This document shows, piece after piece, positions 1 to 44,324 of a stretch of 64,000 nt of DNA (position 1 is its first letter; each line of letters opens with the position of its first letter). The stretch covers positions 3,038,001 to 3,102,000 of the forward strand of contig CM035350.1 in assembly GCA_020137815.1 (NCBI GenBank), written 5' to 3'. Under the pieces are notes generated by a model. It was not told the DNA's origin, ran no database searches, and was given only the letters and a program-made list of their open reading frames with translations. This DNA comes from Hormiphora californensis. Taxonomy: Eukaryota; Animalia; Ctenophora. The translations under genes were made by a program, and so were the position numbers.

Positions 1-3852
<3,852 letters not shown>

Positions 3853-14474: not shown

Positions 14475-22914
<8,440 letters not shown>

Positions 22915-24170: not shown

Positions 24171-25577
24171 AAAAACCGTTTGTCAGCACTCCCAAAACAC
24201 CCAGATTTATCGCTGGCCTTGGCATACGTTGCAGGCCCCTTATAATATAATATAAGGGGCCTGGAGGGAATACCGCGCTGGGGGGGAATACATAATCAAT
24301 CATATCTCCGGTTCCAGATAAGGTACAGAAATCGTTTTGGTAGCGTTGGAAAGAGGAAGATAACAGCTTTCAAATGCAACCGGTTTCAGGTCTCTATCTT
24401 ATCAGGAACAGGAGATATGAATCAAACTCCGCAAAATCGAGTGCGGTAAAATAAAAAAATTCGAGATTTTAATTCAAATTTGAAACAAAGTGTCCCTGCA
24501 GGGATCTGTGACGTCACTTTTTGAAAACAACCCATCTTTGAACGGTTATTGCTCAGCCTCCTGAAGTCCAATTTACTTCTCTCAAAAACAGCAAGGTAGA
24601 TAATTGTCAGATCTAACAGCTAGTGAAAGAATCAAGTTTAACGGACTTCAGGGGCCAAAGTTATAAGCACCGCCGTTTTTTCGCTCGCAAAGTTATCTTC
24701 GACCCAGCCGGGCCCGTCCTGAGCTCAGGCCAAACGCGCGCGCGGCATTCCCTTCAGTCCCCTCGTTGCGGGGGTGCGCGCATGAGGGGGCTGCAGCGCA
24801 TTCCAATCGCTGGCCGATCTTCCTGGCCGCACGCTCCAAAACCTGAAATCTGAACTTTTTCAAATAAAAACGCGCGCGCGCTTATCTTTCTCCGCGCCGC
24901 CTCGGAAAATGCATTTGAATGTTACGCGCGGAAGATGATAGCAAGCGCTGCCGCGATTTAGCTCTTTTCAAAGCGCGCGCCATAACAATTTCGGCATCCA
25001 AACGAAATTTCGCGAAAATTGCCTCATTTTTAATTGAAGAAGAAAGGCGAAAGGCGAAAGGCCTTCTATTTTCTTCCCTTCTTTCGCCCAAAAAGTGGAT
25101 CTAGCCTCTAGGACCCACTGGACGCACGCTTTCTTCGCCCCTGGGCCTGACCTGATGAGACTTCATCCCGGTTGCATTGGAAAGAGAAATGAAAGATCGT
25201 GAGCCGGTCAAATGACCCCCTGTCACCTGTGTGTGTCTATTGAACAAAAAAATTCGACAGAAATATCTCTAGAAGGAAAATAAAGCGAGATGATCCGCGA
25301 GGGATCACAACCCGGAGTGGGGGTGTTACACACCGTACAAAGTTTAACACGATTTATTGACTGATATCTAGATTATTTAGAATCTTAGAGTCTTAGGTAC
25401 TTATAGGAACGTAGACCGGAGTAGAGTAGACGCGAATATTTGCACTATGGAAATTCATAGTGCTGTATTCCTTGGTGATGCAATCACCTCTTCGTTTGCC
25501 TCCCTTAGAGCGGCTGTTAGTGTAGAGGTGACTGCGTCACCAATGTATTTCCCTCCTTTAAAGAATCAGAAAAGACA

Positions 25578-25713
25578 CGACAGACAGAAGACGATCTGGT
25601 GGTGATTCCGAAAGGATGATCCGGCACTATGCTGTCTCGCCTGTTCGGCGAGACTTGGCTGTGTGACTGTTTACAGTCCCAGATGAGCGGCCCAAACCAA
25701 ACCAAACCAAACC
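25578..25713 (+). mobile_element. Short retroposed insert (LINE 3' end or SINE) with (CCAAA)n tail and 14-bp TSD
   Basis: AATCAGAAAAGACA at 25564-25577 and 25714-25727. Internal stem-loop GTCTCGCC-TGTTC-GGCGAGAC. Confidence 0.8.
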
Positions 25714-25826
25714 AATCAGAAAAGACAGGTGATGTGACTGGTATAGGATGTGACTGAGTCATAACTTACTAAGTTTTTTACACGTTGGTAAGTCACTGCT
25801 CCACACGTTAAGCAGTTCCCACGTTG

Positions 25827-27063
25827 TTAATTTGAGATATGTCCCTAGGATGGCGGAACCGCCCGTAGGGGCAGTCCCAAGCTATGACGACGATGGAGAA
25901 GCCCAAGAAATCTTCAAGTATAGGAGAATGTTTGGGTAGTACGATGAGAAGTACACTGTTTAGTGCAATGAGTGATATAATGTTGGTAAAGAAAGGAACT
26001 CTGAATCGTCAACGCGAGCGAGAAGCGGTAGAGGATTTACTAAAAGAGATCTTGGAAAAGGATACGGAGGATAATGAGCGTCAATTTATTGAGGAAGCAC
26101 TACCGCTAGATTACAAGTTGAAGGAGTACCAGGCAGAAAAACTCCAGGCTATCACTAAGAAACTCTGTCGTCACATTCTCCAGTTAGGGAGGGAAATAGG
26201 GAATGAGAAACGATTGTGTGAAACTAAGATGAAGAACTATGAAAGTGCTAGAACGAAAGAAAGCCTGCAACTGGAGGACTGTAATAGGAAACTGGAGGAG
26301 GTACAGAAAGAACTTAGCACGTTCAAAGAAGAAGTCGACAAGCATCGGGTAGCAAGGATTGCATTGCAAGGGAAGCTGATAGAAGCACAAAATAGTTTGA
26401 TTGAAGTACAAAAACGTGAAAACAACTCGATGTCAGAGTCTGTCCAAAAGCAGTTGCATGACTACTCCAAGGTCCTTGTACAGAATTGTTCTGCTGCTAT
26501 TGCTCCATCTCGCCTGAAGGAAGCATGGAAGAAGGCGACAGTTTCCTCTCCACCAACAGAAAGAACAACTCCGGATAGAAAGCTGAATTTGGTTATATTT
26601 GGGCTCCCAGAAACCACTGCCAGGGCTACTGATCATGAAGTTCAGGATATCTTTGCTGAGCTAAATGAGAAACCTGTCGTGACCTCCACAAAGCGGGTTG
26701 GCCTAAAGACTGATGACCGAGTGAGACCTGTTATCGTCACCCTTGAAAGAAGGGAATCCTTGCTGCAGCTTCTTCGGAAAGCAAAGCAGCTGCAGAGTTC
26801 AGAGAAGTTTTCATCCGTTTTTCTCTCTCCCGACCTATCACCAGACGAACAGCGAGAGCGGAAATCTCTTGTTGATACTCTGAAAGAACTAAAACGAGAT
26901 AATCCGAATGGACGTTATTGGATTAGTAAGGGGGTCATTAAATGTGGCTAAGTGAACTCTAACCATTGAATTTTAAATCGAAAGGACTATCCAAATTGCC
27001 CACAAAAAGGGGCGTATATGTATGCAATGTATACATTTTTAGATTTAATAATAATAATAATAA
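25827..27063 (+). mobile_element. ORF1-only retroelement copy 1, starting with the SL 3' end, with (TAA)n tail and 10-bp TSD
   Basis: TCCCACGTTG at 25817-25826 and 27064-27073. Starts TTAATTTGAG; tail at 27046-27063; no RT or endonuclease ORF. Confidence 0.88.
25884..26951 (+). CDS. LINE ORF1p-like protein (coiled coil + RRM + CTD), 355 aa
   Basis: Intronless. Coiled coil followed by NLVIFGLPE...KRVG...RPVIVTL...VFLSPDLSPDEQRERKSL, typical of CR1/L2-clade ORF1 proteins. Confidence 0.85.
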   Translation: MTTMEKPKKSSSIGECLGSTMRSTLFSAMSDIMLVKKGTLNRQREREAVEDLLKEILEKDTEDNERQFIEEALPLDYKLKEYQAEKLQAITKKLCRHILQLGREIGNEKRLCETKMKNYESARTKESLQLEDCNRKLEEVQKELSTFKEEVDKHRVARIALQGKLIEAQNSLIEVQKRENNSMSESVQKQLHDYSKVLVQNCSAAIAPSRLKEAWKKATVSSPPTERTTPDRKLNLVIFGLPETTARATDHEVQDIFAELNEKPVVTSTKRVGLKTDDRVRPVIVTLERRESLLQLLRKAKQLQSSEKFSSVFLSPDLSPDEQRERKSLVDTLKELKRDNPNGRYWISKGVIKCG

Positions 27064-28796
27064 TCCCACGTTGCAACTGTCTGGCATGTCAGTTTTGCCT
27101 CCCCAATCAGAACATGTTGCCCCTTACATTCCACTTCGATAACACTTCCTACCTCATGACCATCCCAGGAATGGGTTACCGATCCCTCTATAATCACATC
27201 TGGGCACTTCAAATCTGGGATCGAGAAATATCTTGTCAGTGATGGTATATCCTAGACTATTCCTACCAAGTTACTACTCTATAACTATTGCTTTTGATTA
27301 TCAAATCATATAACGATTTACCTGATGTGAAAGCACAGGAACATGCACTGTAATTCCATGAACAAGATACGTCAAACCAACCACCATTGCCTTTATTCAG
27401 TATTACACATCGCTCATTTGGCTGCATTGGGTTCATCATCGCGCCAATTACTCCACTGTAGGGATTTGTCATCAGGCCAAACCCAGTCTTTGTTGTCTCC
27501 CGTTTTATCATATAGACCTATACGGGATAATATTTATTGGATAAAAAGGTTAAATGTTAGGCAGAAGTTTAGATAACTTACCAAGCCATGTATTCTTTCC
27601 GCGGTAATTTGTATGCCAATACAATTGCTCGTTCTCTTCTTCGTTGAGAATCGTCGGTAGTTGACCGTTTAACTCAGAACAGTAAGTGCTACACCCAGAT
27701 TGGGAAGCTCCAGATGTTTCAGGGAATAGAACTAACAGCTTGACCGGTTCTAAATATTTTCTATAGTTGGTCAATAATGTTAATCACGCACAAAATCTGA
27801 AGACAGTAGTTTTAGCTCATAGTTTGGTGAACCCTTGACTGTCAAAATTACTATTAAAATACATTTATTACCTGTAAAAGTTATTGGTTTTGAGGCAGCC
27901 CCACAATCTGGCGTCTCTATGTGCTGATCACAGGTCACTATCTGCTCCTTCCACCCATCGTTTCCACAGTACAAGTAGAGAGAATCTCCAATGCCGACCT
28001 TACCAAGCCCAGCAGTTGGGACGTACGATATAGTTATATTACTCGAGCCCAGCGTACAATCTGGTGATAGAAAAGAATTAAACGCGTGAACTAGGTTGGC
28101 AATCGAGTCAGATTCAGTAGAAACCACCCAGATGACTTACCTGTAACTTTGTAGATCATAACTTCTGCTATGTTCATGATCAGGTCATTGTGGCCTTTGT
28201 CATATGTCTCCTCCATTACGTTATCAGAGAGTAAAACTGTAATTGTTTTCTCGGTAGTAGCGGGACAGGAAACCGTGTAGGTTTGATCACTCTCAGATTC
28301 ACCATTTGAGTTGACGGAGTTGATAGTCCCACATGTTGTGTTACTTGTAGCACCGATAAGAGAGACCATTGTACCCAGTAGACGGTTAGAATAATATGCA
28401 ACGGTAGACAATCTAGAAAATATACCATTTAGTTTTATAGTCTTTAGAAAGTAATGCAATTTTATTTTGAATGTTTCATTCATGTAGGTACATACCTGTT
28501 AATGATTACCACTTTTTCAACATCCTGCGGTTCCGTCAATTCTAGATTTAGCCACTGTTCTTGGTTACTCAGATCAGAATGGTAAAGAGTGTCAGTGTTA
28601 CCATCTAGTACTTTGTCGGGTTTATTGCCGCTCTTATAATACACAGTCCCTGCAGTAGCACTGGCAACATCAACTTGTTCAGCTCCACAGAGTGCTACAC
28701 CAAGAATCAGGAGTACAACAAATCCTCTGATCATCTCAACAATCCATTTAGATACTAATTGATAGATCAAAGTTAATTTAGGGGTGGTACTAATGG

Positions 28797-29109
28797 TTAG
28801 GTAGGCGGTAGATCTGAGAGTACATGCAAAACCACGTTTTTGTCCATAACTCAGTCATTTCTTGACCAATTTGCAAAATCTTGGGCGTGTTGGAAAAAAA
28901 ATGTGCGGTGTCATGGCGCAAAATGCGTGTTTTCGCCACCACACCCCGCAATTTGAGCCAATTGATATTTTCTTGAGCTCATTTGAGAGATCTCAATGTC
29001 CTCTTTCCAATGAGCCAAAGATTTTGCAAATTGGTCAAGAAATGGCTGAGTTATGGGCAAAAACGTGCGAAATTCTCACAGATCTGGTTAACATTTACCG
29101 CCTACCTAA
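28797..29109. mobile_element. MITE just upstream of the lectin gene
   Basis: TIRs TTAGGTAGGCGGTA / TACCGCCTACCTAA. Inner inverted repeat CCATAACTCAGTCATTTCTTGACCAATTTGCAAAATCTT. Confidence 0.75.
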
Positions 29110-29913
29110 TCTGCTAATCTGTTAATGGTTATGTTTGGAAAGTGTCTCAAAAATTTTGTTCTAAATTTGTAGCAGGAAAAGAAAAAAAGTAAAACTTCAA
29201 GAAAAACAAGAATTATTTGCATTATGTACCAAAGCAGCTTTCCTAATTCTAGAACTACGGGACATTAGCTCTCGTGACTCGTTATCCCTCTCTCCCTCAT
29301 TGTTTTCCCTCTCCCTCCCTTTCCACTGGTCCTTTGCCAAAGCATCTAGCCCTCTTAGATCAGAGAGCTCCCAAAATAGGAGAGCTCCTACCTCCCTCTC
29401 TCGAGAGCCCCACTGCATGTACTTCACACTGATATATCTATAAAAAGAAACCAAGAATTTCTTTACTAAACAGTAAACACAGTCCCCCTTATTGGTTCCA
29501 ATTATTGGGCCACTGCACATTAGTACATGATGATATCTCAGTACTCAGTAGTTAGTATGACTGATCAATATATCAATAGTCACTGATACCAGTTACTACT
29601 GATAAGCCTCCCTGTGCCAAGCTGGGCCGCATGTTTGATAACTTTTATGTACAAAAAGACCTCTCCAATACATAAAATGTTTAGTTGGAGTGGTCTTTTT
29701 TTGGTCGCCAAAAAATGGGTTTTTAGGTCCTTAAAGGGATACTGACATATTCAAATCGACCATCACAAATTTAATAAAAACATTGCTCAATCAAATCATC
29801 TGAGAGAAAAAATGCGTTGTGTCGAAGTCCGAGCTCTCTACTCCCTCGCTTTTTCGCTTTTTCGCTATGGACGTCATAGGAACCTGAGATATGTCGCATC
29901 ACCCCTCACCTTG

Positions 29914-31224
29914 TAGTCAGGGCATATGATGTCAATTTCATGGTGATTTTCGGCATAATTGTTATTAAGCTAATTCCACTTTTAGGAGGTCCTATTAGGT
30001 CCCTAGAACCACCAAAAAAAATGTTCGCGATTTGGTGGATGAAGAAGTTGGGTTTCCGGGCCACGCCCTTCTACTAACTTTTTAGCCTAAGGCATAAAAA
30101 CGCCAAAACTGTGCTTAGGGTAGGAGTAGGGACAAAATCAAGGGCACTAGAGTATTCAGCGTCCTCGCATTAGTGGGGGTAGGTGCTGGAATTAAGTCTC
30201 TATCTCATCTGGTTAATTATATAATTGGATAGTTAGCTCTGCGCATAGCCGTTTTTGGCCATATGGCTATAGCCATGTTAGGAAAGGAGTAGAGACAAAA
30301 CCGAGGGCACTAAAGTGTTCAGCGTCCTCGAATTAGTGGGGTAGGTGCTGGAATTAAGTCTCTATCTCATCTGGTTAATTAGATAATTGGATAATTAGGT
30401 CTGGGTATAGCCATTTTTGGCCATATGGCTATAGCCACTTAGGAATGGTTTATCGACTTTTCATTGGTGCCATTTTGTTCAGAAAAAAATTTCAATCTAA
30501 GAGTTGTGGAAAAATATAGAGCCTATCTCTTACCGTTTTGGCGTTATTTGCGGTCAAAGTAGGCCAATTAACTAATATTTTTGGCTTTTTCGGCTGATTT
30601 GGCATACTTTGACCGCAAATAACGCCAAAACGGTAAGAGATAGGCTCTAAATTTTTCCACAACTCTTAGATTGAAATTTTTTTCTGAACAAAATGGCACC
30701 AATGAAAAGTCGATAAACCATTCCTAAGTGGCTATAGCCATATGGCCAAAAATGGCTATGCCCAGACCTAATTATCCAATTATCTAATTAACCAGATGAG
30801 ATAGAGACTTAATTCCAGCACCTACCCCCACTAATTCGAGGACGCTGAACACTTTAGTGCCCTCGGTTTTGTCTCTACTCCTTTCCTAATATGGCTATAG
30901 CCATATGGCCAAAAACGGCTATGCACAGAGCTAATTATCCAATTATCTAATTAACCAGATGAGATAGAGACTTAATTTCAGCACCTACCCCCACTAATGC
31001 GAAGACTTGATTTTGTCCCTACTCCTACCCTAAGCACAGTTTTGGCGTTTTTATGCCTTAGGCTAAAAAGTTAGTAGAAGGGCGTGGCCCGGAAACCCAA
31101 CTTCTTCATCCACCAAATCGCGAACATTTTTTTTGGTGGTTCTAGGGACCCAATAGGACCTCCTAGAAGTGGAATTAGCTTTATAACAATTATGCCGAAA
31201 ATCTACCATCATATGCCCTGACTA
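29914..31224. mobile_element. Nested ~1.3-kb foldback palindrome
   Basis: TAGTCAGGGCATATGATG mirrors CATCATATGCCCTGACTA. Centre near 30590; each arm contains a ~170-bp internal duplication. Confidence 0.85.
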
Positions 31225-32363
31225 TTGGCTATAGTGGTACATGTACATGCGGGCTTTGGTGGAAGCATTAGGGTGAGCTTCATAAAACAGTCTTAGTCCA
31301 ACCGACATACACGGAATCCGGTGATTAGTTTCTAACCGATCACAACGTCAAGGCTGGGTGCATGCATGTTGTCCCGGGTTCCGTGCCGGATCCTGAACTG
31401 TATCCGACGTGGAGGGATTTTGGAAGAAGGGAGAGATGCGTAGAGTAGAAGAGAGATTTTGAAAGAGCTTAGCCTGATCCGAGAGGTCCCCATGATGACT
31501 CGAGGACAGTCGGGGGAATCAGGCTAGCTGAAAGTAAATCCAGAGCTTCTCAGTCGACTCTCTGTGAACTTGAACTGTGACATAAGGCAGCCTGTAACAG
31601 TAGAGGGTTAAGGTATAGGGAAATAGGGAAATGGAAGGTGAAGGGTATGGATAAATTGTATGAATATTCTACTCCCTCTACTTCTCAAGATATAGGGTCC
31701 CAAATATTAACACCCACTTATTGGTTTGGGTAAGAGGAGGAGACCAGCATTACAGATTACAGGTAAACACGAGCCTGTTTTTTTTTCGTATCTTCTCCGC
31801 ATCCATAGTTTTGCAAGGAGTTAACCTTTGTTTCTGTATCTCAAGGGCTGCCTTACAAAACATGAATTCACCGCGCCCCATCTTGCCCTCTGTCTTTTCG
31901 ACACGAACGCTGCACAGCCCTGCTCTCGTCACATGAGTATAGACTGCTAATTGAATATCAACGTTGATGGTTGCTCTTCAATCAAGAGTCGCACGAGAGA
32001 GCAGCGTGGTTGTACAGCTAGACAACATAGTTTGGGATGGCATTAGTTCCGACGGCACAACCTTATACAGCGCTTACCAGCGCGGGGTGAACCTGCTAGG
32101 GCCGTCCCGACCACTCTCTTTTTACAGAAAGAGCCTAAATTTTACGAGCTACAATCACTAATGTGGGTCGGGACTGCACCCTAGCAGGTGTAATTGATAT
32201 AAGAAGGAGAGGAGACATAGACAGAGACAGAAAAAGAGAACGGATAAATTCAATATACACAATGTATAAAGACAAGATCCGATCCCGGCTGGCTCCTACT
32301 GACATATATTAACAATATTATAATAATATCATTATGACAGTAGCGAGAGGGAGAAAGGTAAAG

Positions 32364-32405
<42 letters not shown>

Positions 32406-32983
32406 GATAGAGATAGAGATAGAGAGATAGAGAGATAGAGAGATAGAGAGATAGAGAGATAGAGAGATAGAGAGATAGAGAGATACTAGATAGAGAGATA
32501 GAGAAATAGCCTGTTTATATGTCATTATCTCAGCTACTACACATGCGATTTTGACCGGGTTTTTTCTGAAAACTTTTAGACCACTTCTAGTTTTCGATTT
32601 TGGTTTCCGTTTGTCTCTAGTCTTGTCATGAATAGCTAGAACTATAACTAAGCAAGACCATGATTTATTTGAAATGTATGCTTTCTTAGAACGATATTAT
32701 CATGTCAATCAGATTTTGCTGGATTTGCTCAATTATTCACACTAATTGTTAATATTTAGCCCATAGTCAATAACAAAGTCAAAAGTTACTAACTATTCAG
32801 CCCTGAAATGAATATTGTATCCCTAAATGTCTGTTTGTGTTGTCCAAACTTGCTACAAATCATTAAATATAGTTTACTACCTACTTCCTCCAGCAACAGA
32901 TATCATATTGATTCTAGTTTGTGTTGAACGTAATAATTGCTTGCTTATAATTGATAGAGTATTCTCTCTCAGATTGATATTTC

Positions 32984-33229
32984 ATGGTTCGTAATTGTGC
33001 TGTTGGAGGATGCTCGAACTCCACTACCGCCAAGCCTACCCGCCATGTGTTTATGAAATTCTACAAGTCTCCAGATCTTAGTGCTAGTGATCAGAAGCTT
33101 CGTGAAACATGGGACAAGCGAATTAATCGACTGCCCATTCATGTTAAAACCAGGAAATTTTATGAGGTGTGCAGAGAACATTTTTCCCCGGAGCAATTCA
33201 ATCCCTCAGAATACCGCATTACCGGTTAA
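32984..33229 (+). CDS. THAP zinc-finger domain ORF (81 aa), probably a transposase remnant
   Basis: MVRNCAVGGCSN...F..F...W...I.R...VCREHF matches the C2CH THAP signature. Confidence 0.8.
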   Translation: MVRNCAVGGCSNSTTAKPTRHVFMKFYKSPDLSASDQKLRETWDKRINRLPIHVKTRKFYEVCREHFSPEQFNPSEYRITG

Positions 33230-33573
33230 AAATGCGGTAATACGCACCGAGATATAAGTCAAAACATTGCACTCCAGTTCACCTCAAACTTCAAAGTTTG
33301 TTTGTTTATTTACGGTTTTTTTCCGGTCATTCTGATAAATCATCATCAAATACTAAACGTTTAAATCATTTCTGACTTTCAGAAAAAAATCTGGTCAAAA
33401 TCGTGCATGTGAAAGTTGAGATATTGACCGATAAACAGACTCGTGTTTACATGTAATTTGCAATACGGCTCTCCCTCTATACCCTAACCAATTAAGAAGT
33501 GATAAAAGGTGGGGCCCATATATCTTGAGAACGAGAGGGAGTAGAGAGTTCGCACTTCGACTCATCGTATTTT

Positions 33574-34117
33574 TGGGGGGGGGGGGGGTGCAGCCCAAAA
33601 AAAACCAACCATACCCTGGATTTTCAAAAGTGTTGATTTTTTTTGGTCGTTTTTGATTTTTTTTTGATTTTTTTTGATCTTTTTTGATTTTTTTAAATTT
33701 TTTTTGATCTTTTTTGATTTTTTTTGATCTTTTTTGATTTTTTTTGATCTTTTTTGATTTTTTTTGATCGTTTTTGATTTTTTTTGAATTTTTTTGATCG
33801 TTTTTGATTTTATTTGATCGTTTTTGATTTTTTTTAAACTTTTTGTTCAACATTAAACAATCAAAAAAAATCAAAAACGATCAAAAAAATTCAAAAACGA
33901 TCAAAAAAATTCAAAAAAAATCAAAAACGATCAAAAAAAATCAAAAACGATCAAAAAAAAACAAAAACGACCAAAAAAAAATCAAAAACGACCAAAAAAA
34001 ATCAAAGAAATTTCAACCAAAAACGACCAAAAACGACCAAAAAAAACCAACCATACCCTGGGTTTCGGAAAAAGTTTGAATTTTTTTGGGGCTGCACCCC
34101 CCCCCCCCCCCCCCCCC
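33574..34117. repeat. Inverted-repeat element with G-rich TIRs and opposing ~10-bp satellite arms (TTTTTTTGAT / ATCAAAAAAA)
   Basis: GGGGGGTGCAGCCC...GGGCTGCACCCCCC termini. The T-rich arm flips to an A-rich arm near 33850. Confidence 0.85.
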
Positions 34118-34324
34118 ATTTTTATCTCCCAACCAGTTACTGAATATGTCAGTATCCCTTTAATATAAAATTTTTGAATATGTCAGTATCCCTTAAATAT
34201 AAAGTCATTGAGATATCACATGTCCTAGCTCTTACATTGGTGCTTCCAGAACTCCTCCCCGCTTGCTACTGAGAGCAGTAACTAAATATCCCCTTCCTGT
34301 AGAGTTTAGGATGTTATAGACGGA

Positions 34325-37300
34325 ATGGCAGATCATATCATTAGGATAATTAAGAGGGGCGGTGCGGATGGAGTTAAGTATCCTGTCAACAAACAAGATA
34401 TTACATTTGGAACGTGAGTTGTAGAACATCGAGTATTTTTCTTCTATCTTCAAATTTAAGTTTATATAAAATTGAGAGGATTTCTCACCAGCTAGATCTG
34501 CACATGGATTCAACACCCCTAATCAGCTTAATGACATTATTTTCCCTTCAGAGATGCAAAGTGTGATATCAGAGTTAGGATACCCAATGTTGAAGGACTG
34601 CACATGAGGGTTCACTTCCCTGAGAATGGGGTAAGAATTCAGGAAACTGATTTGGGCGGGAATTTGGGGTGCGGAGGCTGGAGGGAAACTAGCCCGAATG
34701 GCGAATAATCCGGATGGGGGAATATATGGTTGCTGCATCAGTGTATTATTCGCCAGGGGGAGTTTCCTGCTTGTGTAGTGTGTGTAAGAGAGCTAAGAGA
34801 GAGGGAGGGGGCTGGTTACACGGGGCATGATCTAGCAAGTTTTAGTGGGGTATCAAACATCGCCCTACATATTATGTTTTATTTAACTAACCCTCCCTTT
34901 CTTAACAGGGTAATGTGAGTATTCACAACTACAGTATTGATCACCCTGTATTTGTTAATGGGAAGGAAGTGTACGATCAACTCCCTCTGCAGTCAGGAGA
35001 TGTCTTCACTATTATTGACCGGAGTTTCAGATACGAACTGGCGGCACCACCTCCCCCATGATATTTGTAAGTATCTTGTAGCTCAGTAATGTAGATGAAT
35101 TATGTATGAGTGTACTTACATTCTTTGTGTGTGTGTGACACACTGAAAAACAGGGCGGCAGATTTTTTGAATTGTTTGAGGTGGTTTGTAGCGCGCGCGC
35201 TGTAACCTCCCTGTATAGAGGTGGGTGAATTTCGGTTGTCAGCACTTGAAGCCCGAGTTGGCGCTAAAATTTGTTGTCCTGCGCGGCTTCCCACGTAGCT
35301 TTGTCTGTGTTTGTTCCTTGTGTGTGTGTAAACCGACCCTCTCCTCTCACAGGACGAGAAAGAAAACGAGATGACTCCTCCGCCAAAACCTCGAAAGAGT
35401 AAGATCATGTTTGGTCCCGAGTTGACTCCCGAGGAATTCGACAAGAAGTTACCCGTAGTGAAACCGATATCCAAGGGTCGTACACCACCTCGCCGATCCT
35501 CTACAGGATACTCTATTCTAAAGGGGGCTGAGAGGACCAAAACAGCAGGAGTTCTGGGGGAGGAAGAAGGGTCCCCTGAGGATCTGGGAGAACCGGGTAC
35601 CCCTACTAAGACACCCGGTGAAATTCCACGGTTCAACCTAGACAAGAGTATACGAGAGGAGGAAGAAGCTGCTTCAAATATAGAACCTGTAAAGGAGTCA
35701 ATAGAGGAAGATATTCCCCCTCCTGCAGACGAGGAAACTACAAACTCTGCAGAGGAACACGTCCCACAGCCCGCAGAGGAACTAATCCCAGCACCGGCAG
35801 AATCCAGTGCATCCCCAGTAATAGCTGCCCCGAGAGTGAGCGATATCAGCAGTGCAGCGTCGAGTGAAGACAACATTGTAATCTACGATACGACAACTTC
35901 TGATGCTGACCAGCAGCTAAACTGTACAATTGATGATTTTCTGGTGGGGGGAGACAAGTCCCTTAACCAGACCCGCAAATCTGATGTTATTCCCCTTGAG
36001 ACGAGTAACCTGAATACCACAACAAGCGATGGTGGTAACACAACACAAAGTACTGACAATATTATAATTTACCACACTGATGAAGAGGAGGGGGGAGAAG
36101 GAGGAGAGACCCCAGATCTAGATGCAACAAGACTAGAGGATGCTGATGTGACGCGATGTGAGGCATCCATCCTAACTGAGCCCCCTGTTAACACCACTAT
36201 AGATGACTTCATGGCTGAGGGTGGGGGTGCATCTGCTGCAAATACCCCCGACCAAGCTGCAAGGAGGAAGAGTGTCAGGTTTGGTCCATCTCTGACCCCT
36301 GAAATGTATGACAAGGCGCTCCCCGCTAACACCCCCGTCCGGAAGGGAGGTCTACCCGGGAGGTACTCTGTTCCCAACCCCCAGCTAAGTGCAGGGAGGA
36401 CCCCAATGAGGAAAACAATTGCTACATGTCCGGAGCCGGTAGGGAAGCTTAAGCTGGACGACAGTTTTGAGTCAATGGGATCCTTTGCATCCATGGGATC
36501 CCTGGACTCAGCTAACCAGGAGGGAGAGGAGAAGGCGAGGACAACTAGGAGACGCTCCATGACCCCCAAGGAGGTGAAGGCTAACGTGATATGGGCTGAT
36601 GTAAAAGAGGTACACACTGATTCCCCCATCATTACCACAACCCCAAAGATACCTCGAGCAAAGATAAATGACGTTCTGGTAAGAGGCGTTTAGTTTTTAC
36701 ACGGGGGGGGGGGGGGGGGGCTTTGACACAGTTTTGCTTACATAATTTTTTTTGGATTGTTGTATTGATTATAAAACAGTTCTAATAACCCCACCCCCTT
36801 TACCAGGCAGAAGAAGATACTCCAGATTGTACACCGGAGAGCAGTCCCCAGCCGGAACAAAAGGTGTTTGGAAAACTAGCTAACTCAGCCAAGACACCTG
36901 TGTCTGCTAAAATTACAAATCCTGCTGAGTGCCGAGCTTCCCCTCCAACACCCCTGCCCTTCAAGTTAGTTAAAACTTCGATTTTCTAACACTGATTTTT
37001 AGTACTTAGTACGTTTTTTCCCGGGAGAGAAAGGTCTATAACACTTGATGTACCGAACCCTCACAGAGCGTGCTCGCTTTGTTATGAAATAAAATGACGG
37101 TGTGAGCCACACAATATAACACTGAAAATCCTTTCAGTCGGCCGGCCCTGAATAAACCAGAGAGTCTTCATTTGGCTCTACAGAAGGCTGCGGCTAAGAA
37201 GGCTATGATCGAACAGTCCCAAGTCAAGGTAAATATAAGCAGGATCAGTTTAGCTCATAATTTCTGTGATAATTATATGCCTAACTTTGGGGGATTTCTA

Positions 37301-40300
37301 ACTCTATAGTAACTGAAAGTTGACATGATCACCTCTCTACTCAGGTTGATGAATCGAGCTCTACCGACTCCTCCAAGCGAACTCCTGTTGCGGCACCTGA
37401 TACCGACTCCAAGCGGCGAAAAACAGAGGAGAATACCTGGGCGAATGTGGCGTCTAAACTGTCCAAGTCGCCATGGCAACCAGCCAAGAGTGCTGACACT
37501 GTCAAACTACCACCCAAGACACCCCTTGCAGCGAGGGCTGCTAAAGCAAAGGCTAAGGGTGGAACTGCAAAACCCGTCAAGGCTGAGCCCGTGAAAGCAG
37601 TAGCTGTAAAGGCAGCTCCTGTGAAGACATATGTAAAGAGGAAATCTATTGGTAAGTTTAAGATAATATGTGATTCTGATAAGTACTAATATTATATTAT
37701 TCTACTAATATTATATTAGTCCCCTATTAGTCATCTCTTTTTCAATCCCTTTCCTATTTTACCATCCCATTTCTTCCTCCAGGTGTGGTAAAGCAAGTAG
37801 TGAAACCGGTAGTAAAGAGGAAGAGTCTTGGGGCACACATTCCACTACGGACACCTGCTAAATCTTCTGTCAAAACACCTGCAAAGAAGACCCCAGCTGC
37901 TAAGAAGACCCCGGCTGCTAAAACGTCTGGTGCTGCTGCCCTTCCCGCGACCCCTGCCTACGCTGTCCAGTCAGCCCTAGCTGGTGTGGTATCCGAGGAG
38001 GCCTTGGAAACCCTCCTCCGAGCTCCCAAGGGGTCCCCTCAAGCTGCGTTGATAACAGGAGCCCTGGTGAAGCGATGTGAGGCGGCTATCCGTGACAGTT
38101 TCACAGAGGATCCCCAGGAGGCCCTGGACATCCCTCTAAAGAAGTGTGAGGAGGTGTTGTGCGATGAGAAGAATGAGATCAGGGCGGAACCCCAACTCGA
38201 GGAGTTGGTTGAGATATTCACCGATGACTTCCAGCCTGACTCCGTGGACCAGCTGTGCAGGTTGATGGATCCCATTGTGATGATGCAGTACGAGACGGAC
38301 CCTGAGTTCGATTATGGATCTGTGTCTGCCCTTCTCAAGGAGACGGAGGCAGGGCCTGCCGTGGATTCATCCGCAGTGAGGAACATGCTGAATGGCAATA
38401 AGAAACAATCACGGAAATCTGAGGTGGATGCAGTGGCGCTGATCAGATTGTTTGCTAACCCCAAGGTATTCAAACGGAAATCAGCTGTAGTTGACGGGGA
38501 TGCCCTCAACAACTTGTTCGATGATGCCATGGAAACTGAAGATTTCGAGATGTTATACCGTGAGGCAGATGACGATGGCAACATTGTAGATGCGGAGCAG
38601 GCTAAGAAAGTGATCAGGAAGTCACTGCTGAAGGACAGCATTGTCCCGGAGGATCTTTGCAGAGTGTTCCAGTGGCCAGACTGCAGCAGCTCAGAGGGGG
38701 AGGAGAGCGATACTGAGAATGAGGAGGAGGAAAGGGAACAGGATGTTAAGGTTGATACCCTCTGTGCCGCCATTCAACCAATGATCCGTAAACGATGGTC
38801 CGAGAACTCTAACTTCGATTTCGGGGAGTTGGAACATGTTATCAAGTTTAACGAGGGAGAGCCTGAGGTTGACAGATTCGCTCTGAGGAGGTCCTTCAAG
38901 ACACCTGGTTCCAAGAGCAAGCGATCTACTGATATCGATCCTGCCTCCATCATCAAGCTCATCCTGAAACCCGAAGTGGCTGCTAAGATAACTGCAGAGG
39001 CGGTTATTGATGGAGTGGCATTGAGGAACTTGTTCCGGACCCCAAAGAAACCTAGAGAGCCTGTTGAAGAAGTGGATCCTGAAGGTATGACTGAACTCTT
39101 CAAACCTGATGAATCTGTATTTGAGGAGACCGAAGAGTCTGTAACACCTGAATCTGAAGAGTCGGTAGTAGGTTTGGAGACGGAAGCAGCTGAAGAAGTT
39201 CCAGTTGTTCCTGAGCAGGCCTCAGTCCCTGCTCCTGAAGATGAGGTTGTCCCTGCTCCTGAAGATGAGGTTGTCCCTGCTCCTGAGGATGAGGTTGTCC
39301 CTGCTCCTGAAGATGAGGTTGTCCCTGCTCCAGAAGAAGAGGTTGTCCCTGCTCCTGAAGATGAGGTTGTCCCTGCTCCTGAAGATGAGGTTGTCCCTGC
39401 TCCTGAAGATGAGGTTGTCCCTGCTCCTGAAGATGAGGTTGTCCCTGCTCCTGAAGATGAGGTTGTCCCTGCTCCTGAAGATGAGGTTGTCCCTGCTCCT
39501 GAAGATGAGGTTGTCCCTGCTCCTGAGGATGAGGCTGTCCCTGCTCCTGAAGATGAGGTTGTCCCTGCTTCTGATGTCAGTGAGCCAACACGCAGCGAGG
39601 AAGCCGAGGCAGAAGTAGCCGAGCAGCCTGAATCAGTAGAAACACCAGAAGTAGTTGCTGAGGAACCGATGATTGAAGAGGATGAGATTTACCAGGCGTT
39701 GGAGCCCAAGTCTCTAAGCAGTGTCCTGCAGGGCCAGTCCAGACGGCGAAGCAGCACGATCGCGGCTGATGTTTGCCGGTTGTTTGTTGAGGAGGGTAGT
39801 GTAGCTGAAGCAGTGATTAACGAGTTTACCGAGACAGTCCGTTCCACTCGATCTACCCGCCGTACTAGGAGAACTGTGAGTGAGGAGGAGGTGGAGGAGC
39901 TTGAACCTGCCCCTGTGAAAACACCAGGGAGACGAGGACGACCTGCCAAGGCCAAGGTTGTAACAGAGAATGAAGAACCAGCTCCTGCAAAGACCCCTGG
40001 TAGGCGAGGTCGACCTGCCAAGGCCAAGGTTGTAACAGAGAATGAAGAACCAGCTCCTGTTAAGACCCCTGGTAGGCGAGGAAGAAAGGCTAACATTGTT
40101 GAACCCGAGCCAGAAAGTGAACCTGAGCCTGCTCCTGCAAAGACCCCTGGTAGGCGAGGACGGAAAGCGAAAATTGTAGAGCCGGAAACAGAGACAGAAC
40201 CTGAGCCAGCTCCTACGAAAGCACCAGCAAAGCGAGGACGAAAAGCGAAAATAGTAGAGCCGGAAACAGAGCCCGAACCTGAGCCCGCTCCCTCAAAAAC

Positions 40301-41372
40301 CCCAGCAAAGCGAGGACGAAAAGCTAAGATTGTAGAACCAGAGACAGAGACAGAGGCAGCACCCGCGCCCGCCAAGACACCTGCAAAGCGAGGGCGAAAG
40401 GCCAAGGTTGTGGAAGAGCCTGAGGTGGAGCCAGAGCCCGTACCTGTAAAAACTCCCGGGCGGAGGGGCCGAAAACCAAAAATCGTCGAGCCAGAGGTTG
40501 AAGCTGAGGTAGCTCCTTCAAAGACACCCGCCAAACGAGGAAGGAGGGCGAAGGTGTCTGAATCTGAAACTGAAACTGAGCCAGCAGCCACTAAAACCCC
40601 AGCAAGACGTGGAAGAAAACCCAAGGTTGAAGAACCAGAACCTGCCAAACCAGCTCCTGCCCGAAGAGGTCGAAAGGTGGTAGAGGCGGAACCCGTTGTT
40701 GCTGAACCTGTACCCACAAAAGCTCCTACTCGACGGGGGAGAAAGGCAGCTGATCCTGTACCAGAGGAGCCTGTTGTAGAGTTGGTAGAAGAACCAGTTA
40801 TAGAGGAGCCAGTTAAAAAGGGAAGGGGAAGGTCTAAGAAGGTTGTCGAGGAAGAAACTCCTGTTCAAACCGAGGTAGAAGAACCCGTCAAAAGAAGGGG
40901 AGGGAGGAGGAAGGTTTCTGCTGAGGAAGAGGTGAAAGAAGAGGAGCCTGCAAAACCAAAAAGGGGAGGAAGAAGGAAAGCAGAGCCTGAGCAGCAGCCT
41001 GAGGCAGAACCTGAGAAGCCCGCGAGAAGGGGTCGAGCCAAGAAAGCTGAAGAATCTGAAGAGGTAGCTGCTGCTGCTGCCCCTGTCAAGAGAGGAAGGA
41101 AAGCTGCAAAGAGGAAGGTGGATGAACTGGCTGATGTAAAGGCTGCCCTTGCCACGATAGAGAGTGATGAAGAGTCAACAGAACCTGCCAAGAAACCTCC
41201 TGCGAAGGGAAGGAAGGGTGCTGCAAAGAAGAAACCAGTTATAGTGGTGGAGAAGCAGGAAATAGAAGAGAGTCCTCCGACTGTTAAGAAACCCCGGCTA
41301 TCAACAATCAAGGAGACTGAAGAGAAAACTCCAAAACCAACGAGATCGACACGATCAACGCGAAAGCGATGA
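34325..41372 (+). CDS. MKI67: Ki-67-like proliferation protein (FHA, PP1-binding domain, repeats, basic tail)
   Basis: Exons 34325-~34412, 34552-34630 and 34909-~35066 give MADHIIRIIKRGGADG...FGTDAKCDIRVRIP...VFVNG...GDVFTIIDRSFRYE (Ki-67-type FHA). Also RRKSVRFGPSLTPEMYDKALPANTPVRKGG, TWANV, LFRTPK/SFKTP motifs and KTPGRRGRK repeats. The junction 35066-35353 is not resolved. Confidence 0.82.
39227..39568 (+). repeat. Coding 24-bp tandem repeat, ~14 x PAPEDEVV
   Basis: CCTGCTCCTGAAGATGAGGTTGTC units in frame in the last Ki-67-like exon. Confidence 0.95.
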
Positions 41373-42345
41373 GAGATAGAAACAATAAATAGACTGAATT
41401 GTTAATCTGATAATCTGAGCTGAAATTAACTGAGCCCGAAAGAGACAAGTCGTGTGGTAGGTGACAATGATTAAGACAGGAGTTCAGGTTTTTATCTGTT
41501 ATTTGCCCAGCGTGAAAGAATGAAACTGTCTGTTATCTGTGTTCTGTTGGTAGTCAACCCTGGCCAGAGTGTTTTTAAACTAATTATATTATTTAATTGG
41601 TTTCTATATTCTACATCCAAATAAGTAGTATTTTCAATTTGAATCCAAAATTTAACGAATAAAATTAAAATGTAAAAATTTGACCATAATTGGCACGCGC
41701 AAAAAATTTTCGCGCATATTGTCATGACGCGCGGCGCCGCACGAGCAAAATTGAAGTTTATCGGGCAGCTTTGACTGTCAACATGGGGTCGTCACGCTAT
41801 CGGCCCTCGGGTGAGGATACAGTTATAAACCGGATTCTGCCTCCGTGTACCAGGTTCCTATCTGGCGGTGCCAAACCCCGATCTGATTCTCAAATTGACA
41901 ATGCGCTTAAATGGGGATTGGGTCAGAGGGTCATCATCTTGGCTTTTGAGATGTTGGGTAGAGATGAGGGTAAAGAGAATTGGCCGAGTATGGGTCAGGA
42001 GAAACGAATCGTGTGACGTGCACGCCAAACGAAACGAATGAAAACACAGCTAACGCAGCGTACCCAATAAGAACAATGAACATTTGAAAGTGGTGATATA
42101 CTGTTGAAAAATGCAACCTGTGTAAATGTAATGGATTGTCTAATCTTAATATGCTCAATGTTCAAACCTCTTGTGTGATAATGTGATAACGATATGCTAT
42201 TTATAACTTAATACCGTTTTTTGGGTAAATATTAGGTTTTAATTTACATCCTTTTTGTGGTGAAAAATTTTTTAATTAATTTATTATACCGACTAATCCT
42301 GACAGTGTTTGTATGTGTGTGGCGTGTGTAGGCGTTGATTTTGGT

Positions 42346-42540
<195 letters not shown>

Positions 42541-42619
42541 AAGTTATAGTTAGTTAACTTATTAAACTATTTCTAACTTAATAATTAATTAACTTAGTTA
42601 GTTATTTTTACTGTTAAAT

Positions 42620-42841
42620 CTACCCATTGTCTTCTACCCAGATAGTTATTAGATCATTGTTTCCGTGCCTACTGTCCATCTCAGTCGCAAGCCCGCTTTA
42701 GGTAACTGCTGAAGCTCTAAGCCTCTCAGCCTTGTAGGATATATATGACTTATTTGTATATGTCTGTAGTGTGAGAGCGGGACGAGTCACTTATATGACT
42801 CTAATATAAATATTGAAGTTCATTTTCATTTTCATTTTCAT
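42620..42841 (+). mobile_element. Possible truncated LINE/SINE 3' end with (CATTT)n tail
   Basis: Hairpin GAGTCA-CTTATA-TGACTC followed by TTCATTTTCATTTTCATTTTCA. No TSD identified. Confidence 0.35.
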
Positions 42842-42864
42842 TAATTAATCGATGGGCAAAAGCA

Positions 42865-42905
42865 TTTCAAACTTTTCAACACTACTTTAAACAAATTAAT
42901 TTGAG
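42865..42905 (+). other. Genomic copy of a spliced-leader-like sequence TTTCAAACTTTTCAACACTACTTTAAACAAATTAATTTGAG (retroposed relic, not an SL RNA gene)
   Basis: Matches my recollection of the pleurobrachiid ctenophore SL. It is followed by CAGG rather than a GT donor, and its last 10 nt equal the TSD-defined 5' end of copy 1. Confidence 0.75.
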
Positions 42906-42961
42906 CAGGAAGATGAATCCGATGTAACAGCCCCGAAGGGCAGAAAAACAAAACGTTGATA

Positions 42962-43918
42962 ATGTCGGAAGCGAAGTACGAGGGCGATAACCCTATGATA
43001 AAACGATTAGAAGAGACGGTGGATGACTTTGTTTCTGAAGTTTACCTGTTGAATTCGGACAACACGACGAGCATCACACCAGATGAGTTTACTCAATGTT
43101 ATAGATCGATTCAAGCTGCACCAGATTCAATGTTAACCAACGACAGCTTAGCTTCGCCTAGCAAGCACTGGGGTTCGTACTTTAGACATTGTCTCAAGGA
43201 CCGAACTACGAGTGAAACAATCGAGGCTACTTCGCGTATTTTTCTCTCCAGTATGAAACTTGCCCGAGCAACAATGAACAATTTTGAAACGGTTATCAGT
43301 GTGGAAAACCTCGAGAAACAGCTGCGTGAATGTAAAGAAGAACTTGACCGCCATCGGGTTAACGTAATCGAGCTTCAGCAAACGGTTATCAACCACCAGA
43401 AGCAACAACTCAGTACAGTGACAGCATCGGTACAGAAGGTGAAAGCCTACTCTACTGTGCTAGCACAGAATTGTGCTGCAACCTCCCCCAAAGTGGGAAA
43501 ACCACTACCAGTGAATCATCCTACTCCCGTCCAACAGCCCGGAAGAGAGAAGAACCTGGTTGTGTTTGGTCTCCCAGAAACAACAGATAGAGTAGCTAAA
43601 ACTACTTTAGACGAACTTTTTGAGGAATTAAATGAGAAACCGAAAGTGACTACGATGAAACGCATCGGCGAAAGAAATGAGAAGCGCCCTAGACCGCTCT
43701 TAGTATCCCTGGAGAAGAGAGCGACTCTCCTCGCACTCCTCAGACAGGCACGAAACCTCAAAGACTCCAAACAGTTTTCGGCTGTTTATCTCTCTCCGGA
43801 TCTTACGCCCTCTGAACTGAAAGAGCAAAAAGCTCTAAGGTCCACTTTGAAGCGGATACGATCAGAAGATCCTGACGGCTGCTACTTCATCCGTAATAAT
43901 CTTATCCAAGTGGGATAG
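42962..43918 (+). CDS. LINE ORF1p-like protein, divergent homolog of 25884-26951
   Basis: KEELDRHRV, YSTVLAQNC, NLVVFGLPETT, FEELNEKP, KRIG, RPLLVSL and VYLSPDLTP all align by eye with copy 1. Confidence 0.85.
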   Translation: MSEAKYEGDNPMIKRLEETVDDFVSEVYLLNSDNTTSITPDEFTQCYRSIQAAPDSMLTNDSLASPSKHWGSYFRHCLKDRTTSETIEATSRIFLSSMKLARATMNNFETVISVENLEKQLRECKEELDRHRVNVIELQQTVINHQKQQLSTVTASVQKVKAYSTVLAQNCAATSPKVGKPLPVNHPTPVQQPGREKNLVVFGLPETTDRVAKTTLDELFEELNEKPKVTTMKRIGERNEKRPRPLLVSLEKRATLLALLRQARNLKDSKQFSAVYLSPDLTPSELKEQKALRSTLKRIRSEDPDGCYFIRNNLIQVG

Positions 43919-44324
43919 TTCCCCACTAACTCACCGTTATCAGAGAACCGTGCTAGGAGCAGGCAGTCTACTGCAGTCCCTTTCAAATTAAGGAAAACGA
44001 GTTGTCTGTATACAAACTGTGTCAGTGCGGGATATAAACTGTTACTATTATTATTATTATTATTATTATTAATGATTTCACTGTTGTTAACATGTCCACT
44101 CACGATTGAGCGGGCTGCAAGACAACCCGTGGTAGGGTCTGACGGTCATCAACGCCGAAATAGAGAACAACGTGTTTCTGAATGTGCTTTTAAATACGAA
44201 TCCAACGCAACCGGAATTAGCTTTCTATCTTGTCGGGAAGTATCGCCCCCAAAAACGGGTCCCGTGGCAATTTCAGTTTTTGGGGGAACAGTTGAAAAAA
44301 GGACTTTATGGTCTTGGGCTTGCT

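What the first reader, a model, noticed from the sequence alone, without database searches (positions are those of the whole stretch)
25817..44072. Spliced-leader-capped, ORF1-only retroelement family (two divergent copies): a possible promoterless retroposon that uses trans-splicing
Seen: two ~1.2-kb units (25827-27063 and 42865-44072) share one layout: a 5' motif ending TTAATTTGAG, a short UTR, a single intact intronless ORF1p-like gene, a ~100-120-nt 3' UTR and a trinucleotide tail, with no RT or endonuclease ORF. Copy 1 is bounded exactly by a 10-bp TSD (TCCCACGTTG), so TTAATTTGAG is its true 5' end. Copy 2 carries a 41-nt version. The proteins are clearly homologous but diverged, so these are separate subfamilies. 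Established: TSD, tail and variable 5' truncation mark target-primed reverse transcription; ORF1-only derivatives exist (HAL1); ctenophores add an SL by trans-splicing (I recall it ending AAACAAATTAATTTGAG); dinoflagellate retrogenes carry SL relics. Inference: the element RNA is SL trans-spliced and retroposed in trans by a partner LINE. The integrated T-rich ...TTTGAG end could act as a fresh trans-splice acceptor, so new copies could be cut out of any read-through transcript without a promoter. Caveats: the tails differ ((TAA)n vs (TTA)n) and copy 2 has no visible TSD.
Basis: partly seen in the sequence, partly recalled or inferred. Interest (0 to 1): 0.92.

Follow-up and report, generated by a model that had tools for sequence, protein, structure and literature searches.

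The report
Leader-capped half-LINE retroposons in comb jellies
A family of short jumping genes in a comb-jelly genome encodes only the RNA-packaging protein of a LINE and begins with the leader that comb jellies splice onto their messenger RNAs, so it likely copies itself from trans-spliced RNA with a borrowed reverse transcriptase, and it may account for many of the hundreds of stray leader copies reported in these genomes.

Summary
Confirmed. Both units are real. Copy 2 starts with the last 41 of the 44 bases of the published Hormiphora spliced leader (SL). Copy 1 has its last 10 bases, sits between a 10-bp target duplication, and interrupts a host Sushi exon; public DNA contigs show the empty site. 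The predicted fold's best matches are human LINE-1 ORF1p, and a relative is ORF1 of an autonomous APE-RT LINE. Two searches gave 41 related clusters. Where synonymous sites are unsaturated, dN/dS is 0.16-0.21. All four ctenophore-type copies with a complete 3' end run stop codon, UTR, microsatellite tail, with no ORF2. New here: two leader variants (A, B) occur at the same junction, both in the copy-1 clade and probably both in the copy-2 clade. The leader therefore behaves as a cap picked up in trans, not as inherited element DNA. Not shown: the partner LINE, any RNA with a leader joined to these copies, and the relic acting as splice acceptor (it ends GAG, and copy 1 is antisense to its host). 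ORF1-only LINEs are known (HAL1, HeT-A, Ag-Sponge); SL capping of one was not found in print. This scan noted SL-capped LINEs before, in dinoflagellates and Euglena.

The parts
25817..25826 (+). left target-site duplication of copy 1
   Evidence: empty-site joint 25816->27064, skip 1247, 10 letters fit both sides
25827..25836 (+). last 10 nt of spliced leader A; 5' end of copy 1
   Evidence: 3 contigs of run X1 continue upstream with 13 further leader letters
25837..25883 (+). 5' UTR of copy 1 with upstream ATGs at 25839 and 25850
   Evidence: the 25850 start appears in frame with ORF1 in P0003 and P0032
25884..26951 (+). ORF1p-like gene, 355 aa (coiled coil, RRM, CTD by alignment to copy 2)
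26952..27044 (+). 3' UTR of copy 1
27045..27063 (+). (TAA)n tail of copy 1
27064..27073 (+). right target-site duplication of copy 1
25770..27214 (-). host Sushi/CCP exon interrupted by copy 1 (exon ends inferred from AG/GT); part of an F5/8-type C, C-type lectin, Sushi gene reaching about 28854
   Evidence: Pfam Sushi E 7e-6, Lectin_C E 2e-4, F5_F8_type_C E 1e-6; frame is open with the element removed, stopped with it; boundaries read
42540..42845 (+). 3' end of another retroelement with (TTTTCA)n tail; 42689-42838 is shared with the 3' UTR of ORF1-only relative L003; candidate partner-type 3' end
   Evidence: 69% over 166 nt, E 1e-14; z 14.4, 0 of 300 shuffles; folding z -2.77, 0 of 200 shuffles
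42865..42905 (+). 41 nt of spliced leader A; 5' end of copy 2
   Evidence: identical to the last 41 of the 44 nt printed in PMC8527503
42906..42961 (+). 5' UTR of copy 2 with a 4-codon uORF (42913-42927)
   Evidence: same junction in L001
42962..43918 (+). ORF1p-like gene, 318 aa: N-terminal helices, coiled coil (about 83-172), RRM (about 195-280), CTD
43919..44041 (+). 3' UTR of copy 2, unrelated to that of copy 1
   Evidence: z 0.2 against shuffles
44042..44071 (+). (TTA)n tail of copy 2

Best explanation
These are two members of a ctenophore family of LINE derivatives that encode only ORF1p and carry the host spliced leader at their 5' end, likely because their RNA is SL trans-spliced and then likely reverse-transcribed into new sites by the ORF2 protein of a partner LINE. 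Steps: (1) insertion with target duplication, tail and variable 5' length (shown for copy 1; target-primed reverse transcription inferred); (2) ORF1 only, kept under purifying selection (shown), probably to package the element's RNA (inferred); (3) leader added in trans to the RNA rather than inherited as DNA (inferred from two leader variants at one junction across clades); (4) ORF2 supplied by CR1/L2-group LINEs that recognise the 3' end, with different subfamilies carrying different 3' ends (inferred; partner not found); (5) how a new copy is transcribed is open. I put about 0.45 on the relic's terminal AG serving as the next trans-splice acceptor in a neighbouring transcript, which would replace the relic without a scar, and about 0.55 on source copies that use some other promoter or acceptor.
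For: Leader identity. Empty sites: 8 of the 12 joints listed skip the element, in 3 of 3 DNA-type runs, two of them by exactly 1247 nt. Fold: the 11 Foldseek hits at E<=0.001 are all human L1 ORF1p, best E 2.4e-5; VIA-align ranks 1-3 are L1 ORF1p, Z 10.0/9.8/9.5, rmsd 2.6/3.9/5.4 over 86/128/118 residues. L005 carries an ORF1 relative (profile E 5e-17) followed by an endonuclease-RT ORF. Family: 14 + 27 clusters, 170 member sequences by my sum. 4 of 4 ctenophore-type copies with a complete 3' end lack ORF2 (window copies, L002, L003). dN/dS 0.16-0.21 in 5 of 10 pairs; the other 5 are saturated. Leader A: both window copies, 3 X1 contigs, L001, P0009. Leader B: one X13 contig on a 93%-identical copy-1 relative, L002, P0094, P0100, and P0072 (3 residues only). 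The tree puts A and B together inside well-supported clades. The 3' end of L003 is shared with a separate element in the window.
Against: No RNA evidence: the one RNA run laid (X9) gave 3 contigs, none reaching the 5' end. No partner LINE found in ctenophores. Run X1 may be the window's source sample; the empty-site joints vary in sequence and may come from paralogues of the host gene; the exact X1 joint has only 20 letters on its short side. Two relatives with readable upstream sequence show no leader peptide (P0008; P0095 at most the last few bases). Leader B was not found in print; it is called a leader from its 34/44 match to A and its position. The loose-end table showed 21 rows and hid 254. 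Copy 2 has no TSD. The mixing of A and B in the copy-2 clade rests on 3 residues of P0072. GAG is a rare 3' splice site (general knowledge) and copy 1 is antisense to its host.
Confidence: 0.76

Rival explanations
1. Processed pseudogenes of domesticated ORF1 host genes (L1TD1-like): ordinary SL-capped mRNAs retrocopied by LINEs, the copies being dead ends.
For: Purifying selection; intronless copies; SL capping is normal for ctenophore mRNAs, at least 56% of Iso-Seq reads (passages).
Against: Tails are microsatellites of several kinds, not poly(A); 41 clusters with many intact members; a 3' end shared with another element; no other leader relic in the window on a non-ORF1 gene.
Confidence: 0.09
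2. Split or operon-like LINE: ORF1 and ORF2 come from one bicistronic RNA resolved by trans-splicing, or from two separately mobile SL-capped halves; the ORF1 units are then one half of an autonomous system, not parasites of a normal LINE.
For: No ctenophore ORF1+ORF2 element turned up; the family is old, diverse and conserved; an element without ORF1 next to its 3' end shares that end with an ORF1 unit.
Against: No SL-capped ORF2 unit seen; my searches could not have found one; the ORF1 type sits in a normal two-ORF LINE in L005; ORF1-only parasites are a known kind.
Confidence: 0.08
3. The leader was captured once (template switch or one early retrocopy) and is now inherited as the element's fixed 5' end, perhaps acting as an internal promoter (an SL exon is a promoter element in Ascaris; recalled, not checked).
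For: Junctions are conserved within subfamilies; small-RNA/LINE chimeras are known (passages).
Against: Only the exon part of the SL is present; variants A and B both occur in the copy-1 clade and on three further lineages, which one inherited change cannot produce; copy 2 matches the published leader base for base while synonymous sites between families are saturated.
Confidence: 0.07

Closest known systems
ORF1-only non-autonomous LINEs: HAL1 (L1 clade), HeT-A (Jockey), Ag-Sponge (CR1) (PMC5753468, PMC5786205; passages read)
   Same: Single ORF1p gene, no ORF2, LINE-type 3' end, presumed mobilisation in trans.
   Different: Those keep the parent LINE's 5' end; here the 5' end is the host spliced leader in two variants, and 3' UTRs and tails differ between subfamilies. 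Independent origin in ctenophores is inferred.
Dinoflagellate SL-relic retrogenes (PMC12014239; passages read)
   Same: Genomic SL relic marks retroposition of trans-spliced RNA; a new SL is spliced on within the relic, a precedent for relic-as-acceptor.
   Different: Those are host genes and keep a tandem SL-relic scar. Here it is a selfish element, and the leader's only AG is terminal, so re-splicing would leave no scar.
SL-bearing TE transcripts in Hydra (PMC12220107; passages read)
   Same: About 30% of TE Iso-Seq reads carry an SL.
   Different: The passages report RNA only, not leaders integrated as the 5' end of genomic copies.
R2 and L1Tc/ingi elements released by 5' ribozymes (PMC5786205 passages; PMC4035085 and PMC3185411 seen as search listings)
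   Same: Strategy of cutting the element's RNA out of a longer host transcript.
   Different: Here the host spliceosome and SL RNA would do the cutting (untested). No Rfam ribozyme reached threshold in the window.
SL-gene-targeting elements NeSL, CRE/SLACS/CZAR (recalled)
   Same: Association of a non-LTR element with the spliced leader.
   Different: Those insert into SL RNA genes and encode RT; these carry the leader exon as their 5' end and insert elsewhere (copy 1 in a lectin gene).
Type II ORF1p of L1, CR1, L2 and R1 LINEs (PMC4120745; passages read)
   Same: Coiled coil, single RRM, CTD.
   Different: No Pfam PF02994 match at sequence level; detected by structure only.

Membership tests
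ORF1-only non-autonomous LINE (HAL1/HeT-A/Sponge kind) | encodes a LINE ORF1p | tested here: met
   copy 2 model; copy 1 by homology; L005 ORF1
ORF1-only non-autonomous LINE (HAL1/HeT-A/Sponge kind) | no ORF2; ORF1 followed directly by 3' UTR and tail | tested here: met
   4 of 4 ctenophore-type copies with complete 3' end; L001 ends 2 nt after the stop and is uninformative
ORF1-only non-autonomous LINE (HAL1/HeT-A/Sponge kind) | retroposition hallmarks: TSD, tail, 5' length variation, empty site | tested here: met
   met for copy 1; copy 2 has a tail but no TSD
ORF1-only non-autonomous LINE (HAL1/HeT-A/Sponge kind) | multicopy family with ORF1 under purifying selection | tested here: met
ORF1-only non-autonomous LINE (HAL1/HeT-A/Sponge kind) | 3' end shared with an autonomous partner LINE | tested here: inconclusive
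   L003 shares its 3' end with window 42689-42838, whose coding part is absent; no partner found
HAL1 proper | derived from a mammalian L1-clade element, poly(A) tail | tested here: not met
   ctenophore host and microsatellite tails; works like HAL1, is not HAL1
SL-relic retrocopy (dinoflagellate type) | 5' genomic sequence equals the host SL exon | tested here: met
   41 of 41 nt identical to the leader in PMC8527503
SL-relic retrocopy (dinoflagellate type) | transcript carries a new SL spliced onto the relic | tested here: inconclusive
   only one RNA run laid, on copy 1, with no 5'-end contig; contigs could not assign a cap to one copy anyway
Autonomous CR1/L2-group LINE | ORF2 with APE endonuclease and RT | tested here: not met
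   absent from both units and from the window
CR1/L2-group ancestry | RT phylogeny of the parent element | not testable with these tools
   no ctenophore partner RT in hand; type II ORF1, microsatellite tails and L005 point that way only

The most novel reading that the evidence does not exclude
A promoterless, scarless retroposon cycle: each inserted copy carries an AG-free leader relic ending in the only AG, the spliceosome uses that AG to cut the element out of any passing sense transcript and re-cap it with whichever SL variant is at hand, and the ORF1-only RNA swaps 3' ends to hitch onto different partner LINEs. Such elements would make up much of the 718 and 491 dispersed leader copies reported in Hormiphora and Mnemiopsis, turning SL trans-splicing into a route for TE propagation.
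Probability: 0.33. Interest if true: 0.88.

Novelty: new variant of a known kind. Interest (0 to 1): 0.72.

Why it matters
It gives a concrete source for the hundreds of dispersed leader copies in ctenophore genomes. PMC8527503 counts them and treats the 'shared first exons' as a mapping artefact, but in the passages read does not explain why the loci exist. It marks the true 5' end of a LINE-derived family with a host cap, so promoter dependence becomes testable with existing long reads. It bears on why SL trans-splicing persists and why leaders evolve fast. It also shows a young insertion that breaks a host lectin/Sushi exon.

Tried and rejected
Pfam gave no family above cut-off for either ORF, and a profile search of PDB sequences gave only keratin coiled coils; the ORF1p call rests on structure. 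Viral and prokaryote contig scans found no relatives. The search for longer fused forms found none (weak by the tool's own note). The one long hit, P0097, is an ORF1 half joined to host PSF3 in a gene model, not to ORF2. I first thought leader type followed host species; rejected, because proteins labelled P. bachei carry both A (P0009) and B (P0100). A 3'-end swap between L002 and L003 is only partly supported: they are 86% identical up to the stop codon and blastn finds nothing after it, but a weak residual likeness remains (z 3.9, 4 of 300 shuffles). The 3' UTRs of the two copies, L002 and L003 do not fold better than shuffles (z -0.6 to -1.5). An exon chain that would put copy 2 in a same-strand intron failed the frame test, so its host context is open; its neighbours are on the + strand. 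Contig lengths of relatives cluster at element size (median 1378 nt, 54 of 64 between 1.1 and 1.7 kb), but the collection's contigs are short in general, so this is weak. Summed depth was not used as a copy number. No read data were obtained for copy 2, so its TSD and empty site are open. The ESM Atlas gave no answer. Derelle et al. 2010 (PMC2844618) was not held, and the supplements of PMC8527503 could not be read; either may list leader B or discuss the dispersed copies.
Full report
Observation. Both units are as described. Copy 1 runs 25827-27063 between two copies of TCCCACGTTG, the only two in the window. Copy 2 runs 42865-44071 and has no flanking exact repeat longer than 7 nt. The shared 10-mer occurs only at the two 5' ends. 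The ORFs (355 and 318 aa) are 41% identical over 246 aa; their 3' UTRs are unrelated.

The leader. PMC8527503 (passages read) prints a 44-nt trans-spliced leader for Hormiphora californensis; window 42865-42905 equals its last 41 bases, compared by eye. The same passage reports the leader on 56% of Iso-Seq reads, 718 leader-like copies in that 110-Mb genome and 491 in Mnemiopsis. That density predicts about 0.4 long copy per 64 kb; the window has one. The host is therefore a ctenophore, likely a pleurobrachiid.

The protein. Pfam and PDB sequence searches were blank. An AlphaFold model of copy 2 (mean pLDDT 69.7, pTM 0.34; RRM-CTD region about 80) shows helices, a long coiled coil, an RRM and a CTD. 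All 11 Foldseek hits at E<=0.001 are human LINE-1 ORF1p. VIA-align ranks L1 ORF1p first to third (Z 10.0, 9.8, 9.5), ahead of ordinary RRMs at 8.6 and below, a modest margin. Of 12 metagenome loci, L005 has a relative (profile E 5e-17) followed by an 886-codon endonuclease-RT frame and a trinucleotide tail. This is a type II ORF1p as defined in PMC4120745 (passages). A profile search found 11,119 distant relatives at E<=0.001.

Copy 1 is a real insertion. Laying four runs on 24900-28000 listed 12 joints, 8 of which skip the element, in all three DNA-type runs (X1, X5, X13). Two skip exactly 1247 nt, the element plus one duplication: X1 (10 letters fit both sides, short side 20) and X13 (short side 43). 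Removing the element restores an open frame through a Sushi domain on the minus strand. The element is thus antisense inside a coding exon of a lectin-type gene. The joints differ in sequence, so some or all may be paralogous genes rather than the empty allele, and X1 may be the window's own sample. The pre-insertion state is shown either way.

The family. Two searches gave 14 and 27 clusters at 90% identity, 170 member sequences by my sum, from several samples. Four looked-up proteins are labelled Pleurobrachia bachei; I infer that others with names of the same form (P0085, P0094, P0095) share that source and that these are genome gene models (recalled). All four ctenophore-type copies with a complete 3' end go from stop codon to a 93-191 nt UTR and a microsatellite tail: (TAA)n, (TTA)n and two hexamer types. 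Nei-Gojobori dN/dS is 0.21 (copy 2 vs L001) and 0.16 (L002 vs L003), the two pairs with dS below 1; three more pairs give 0.19-0.20 at dS near 2, and five of ten are saturated.

The leader behaves as an exchangeable cap. Leader A precedes the same junction in window copy 1 (10 nt), three X1 contigs (23 nt or more), P0009 (12 residues of leader translation running into the copy-1 UTR), copy 2 (41 nt) and L001 (26 nt, contig start). A second sequence, B, 34 of 44 aligned positions like A, precedes L002 (42 nt), P0094 (14 residues), P0100 (13 residues, same junction as P0094, different flank), one X13 contig whose body has 14 differences from copy 1 in 215 nt, and P0072 (3 residues). On the tree the copy-2 clade (100/99) holds copy 2, L001 and P0072; the X13 contig and P0009 were not in the tree and are placed with copy 1 by identity. 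An inherited 5' end could not change in parallel in families whose synonymous sites are saturated; a cap added in trans can. Limits: most proteins start at their own ATG and say nothing (3 hits among 96 scanned, counting the 3-residue one; 1 clear hit among 183). P0008 and P0095 read upstream without a leader peptide, L003 starts at the last three bases, and B was not confirmed in print.

Partner LINE. None was found. One pointer: a 300-nt 3' remnant with its own tail lies 20 nt upstream of copy 2 and shares 166 nt (69%) with the 3' UTR of L003, while showing no ORF1. That is the pattern of a non-autonomous element and a partner sharing a recognition end, but the remnant could be a SINE.

The promoterless step. 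For: in both leaders the only AG is the last dinucleotide; junctions are kept exactly, including a CAG just downstream in copy 2 and L001 that would be lost if it were the acceptor; no tandem relic was seen in the longer 5' ends; dinoflagellate retrogenes are re-spliced inside their relic (PMC12014239, passages). Against: GAG is a rare acceptor (general knowledge), the relic is 55-56% pyrimidine, copy 1 is antisense to its host, copy 2's host context is unresolved, and no RNA contig reached a 5' end. I leave it near even, given that the family is mobile.

What is known. ORF1-only LINE derivatives are an established kind: HAL1, HeT-A, Ag-Sponge (PMC5753468, PMC5786205; passages). SL relics mark dinoflagellate retrogenes, and about 30% of Hydra TE reads carry an SL (PMC12220107, passages). 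L1 chimeras with spliced exons and small RNAs are known (PMC13174262, passages). Nine literature searches, judged from titles and abstract openings, showed no paper on a leader-capped ORF1-only family or on ctenophore LINEs with leaders; subscription papers, Repbase entries, Derelle 2010 and the Hormiphora supplements were not seen. This scan's notes list SL-capped LINEs in dinoflagellates and Euglena, unchecked by me; none was found for this sequence or genome.

Verdict. A real, mobile, ORF1-only LINE derivative with spliced-leader 5' ends: a new variant of a known kind. Confidence 0.76 in trans-spliced RNA as the retroposed template, about 0.33 overall for the full promoterless cycle. Interest 0.72.

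Noticed in passing
window 25565-25729: A roughly 140-nt repeat with a (CCAAA)n tail and a 14-bp direct repeat on both sides, at very high summed depth in all three DNA-type runs; two X13 contigs skip about 200 nt here. Looks like a high-copy SINE beside the same host exon.
   Followed up: partly
window 42540-42845: 3' end of another retroelement with strong stem-loops (z -2.77) and (TTTTCA)n tail, 20 nt upstream of copy 2; shares its end with L003.
   Followed up: partly
window 25770-28854 (-): Secreted F5/8-type C, C-type lectin, Sushi gene; variant joints suggest a multigene family with a variable loop at the insertion site.
   Followed up: partly
window 881-2261: 46 tandem 30-bp units, each encoding a Walker A-like stretch, inside an AAA-ATPase-like (fidgetin-like, from recall) exon; minisatellite expansion or assembly artefact.
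   Followed up: no
window 18438-18637: U3 snoRNA gene, Rfam E 7e-19.
   Followed up: no
window 32978-33229: THAP domain fragment, Pfam E 2e-9; possible DNA transposon remnant.
   Followed up: no
window 18895-20512: Long inverted repeats (406 nt at 99%, 269 nt at 99.6%) with internal 135-bp repeats; foldback or MITE-like element.
   Followed up: no
window 35371-41372: Ki-67/RepoMan-like gene (name recalled) with a PP1-binding motif (Pfam E 4e-22) and long repeat-rich exons.
   Followed up: no
L005:2-3695: Nearly complete autonomous LINE (ORF1, APE, RT, trinucleotide tail) from an unnamed metagenome contig; host unknown.
   Followed up: partly
L006, L007, L008: Short contigs with ORF1-like genes of 370-410 codons and no ORF2 frame downstream; L007 and L008 share a 3' region. 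Possibly another ORF1-only family in a different organism.
   Followed up: no
protein P0097: Gene model joining an ORF1 C-terminal half (90% to copy 1) to PSF3/GINS3 exons: a copy next to or inside a host gene on the same strand.
   Followed up: partly
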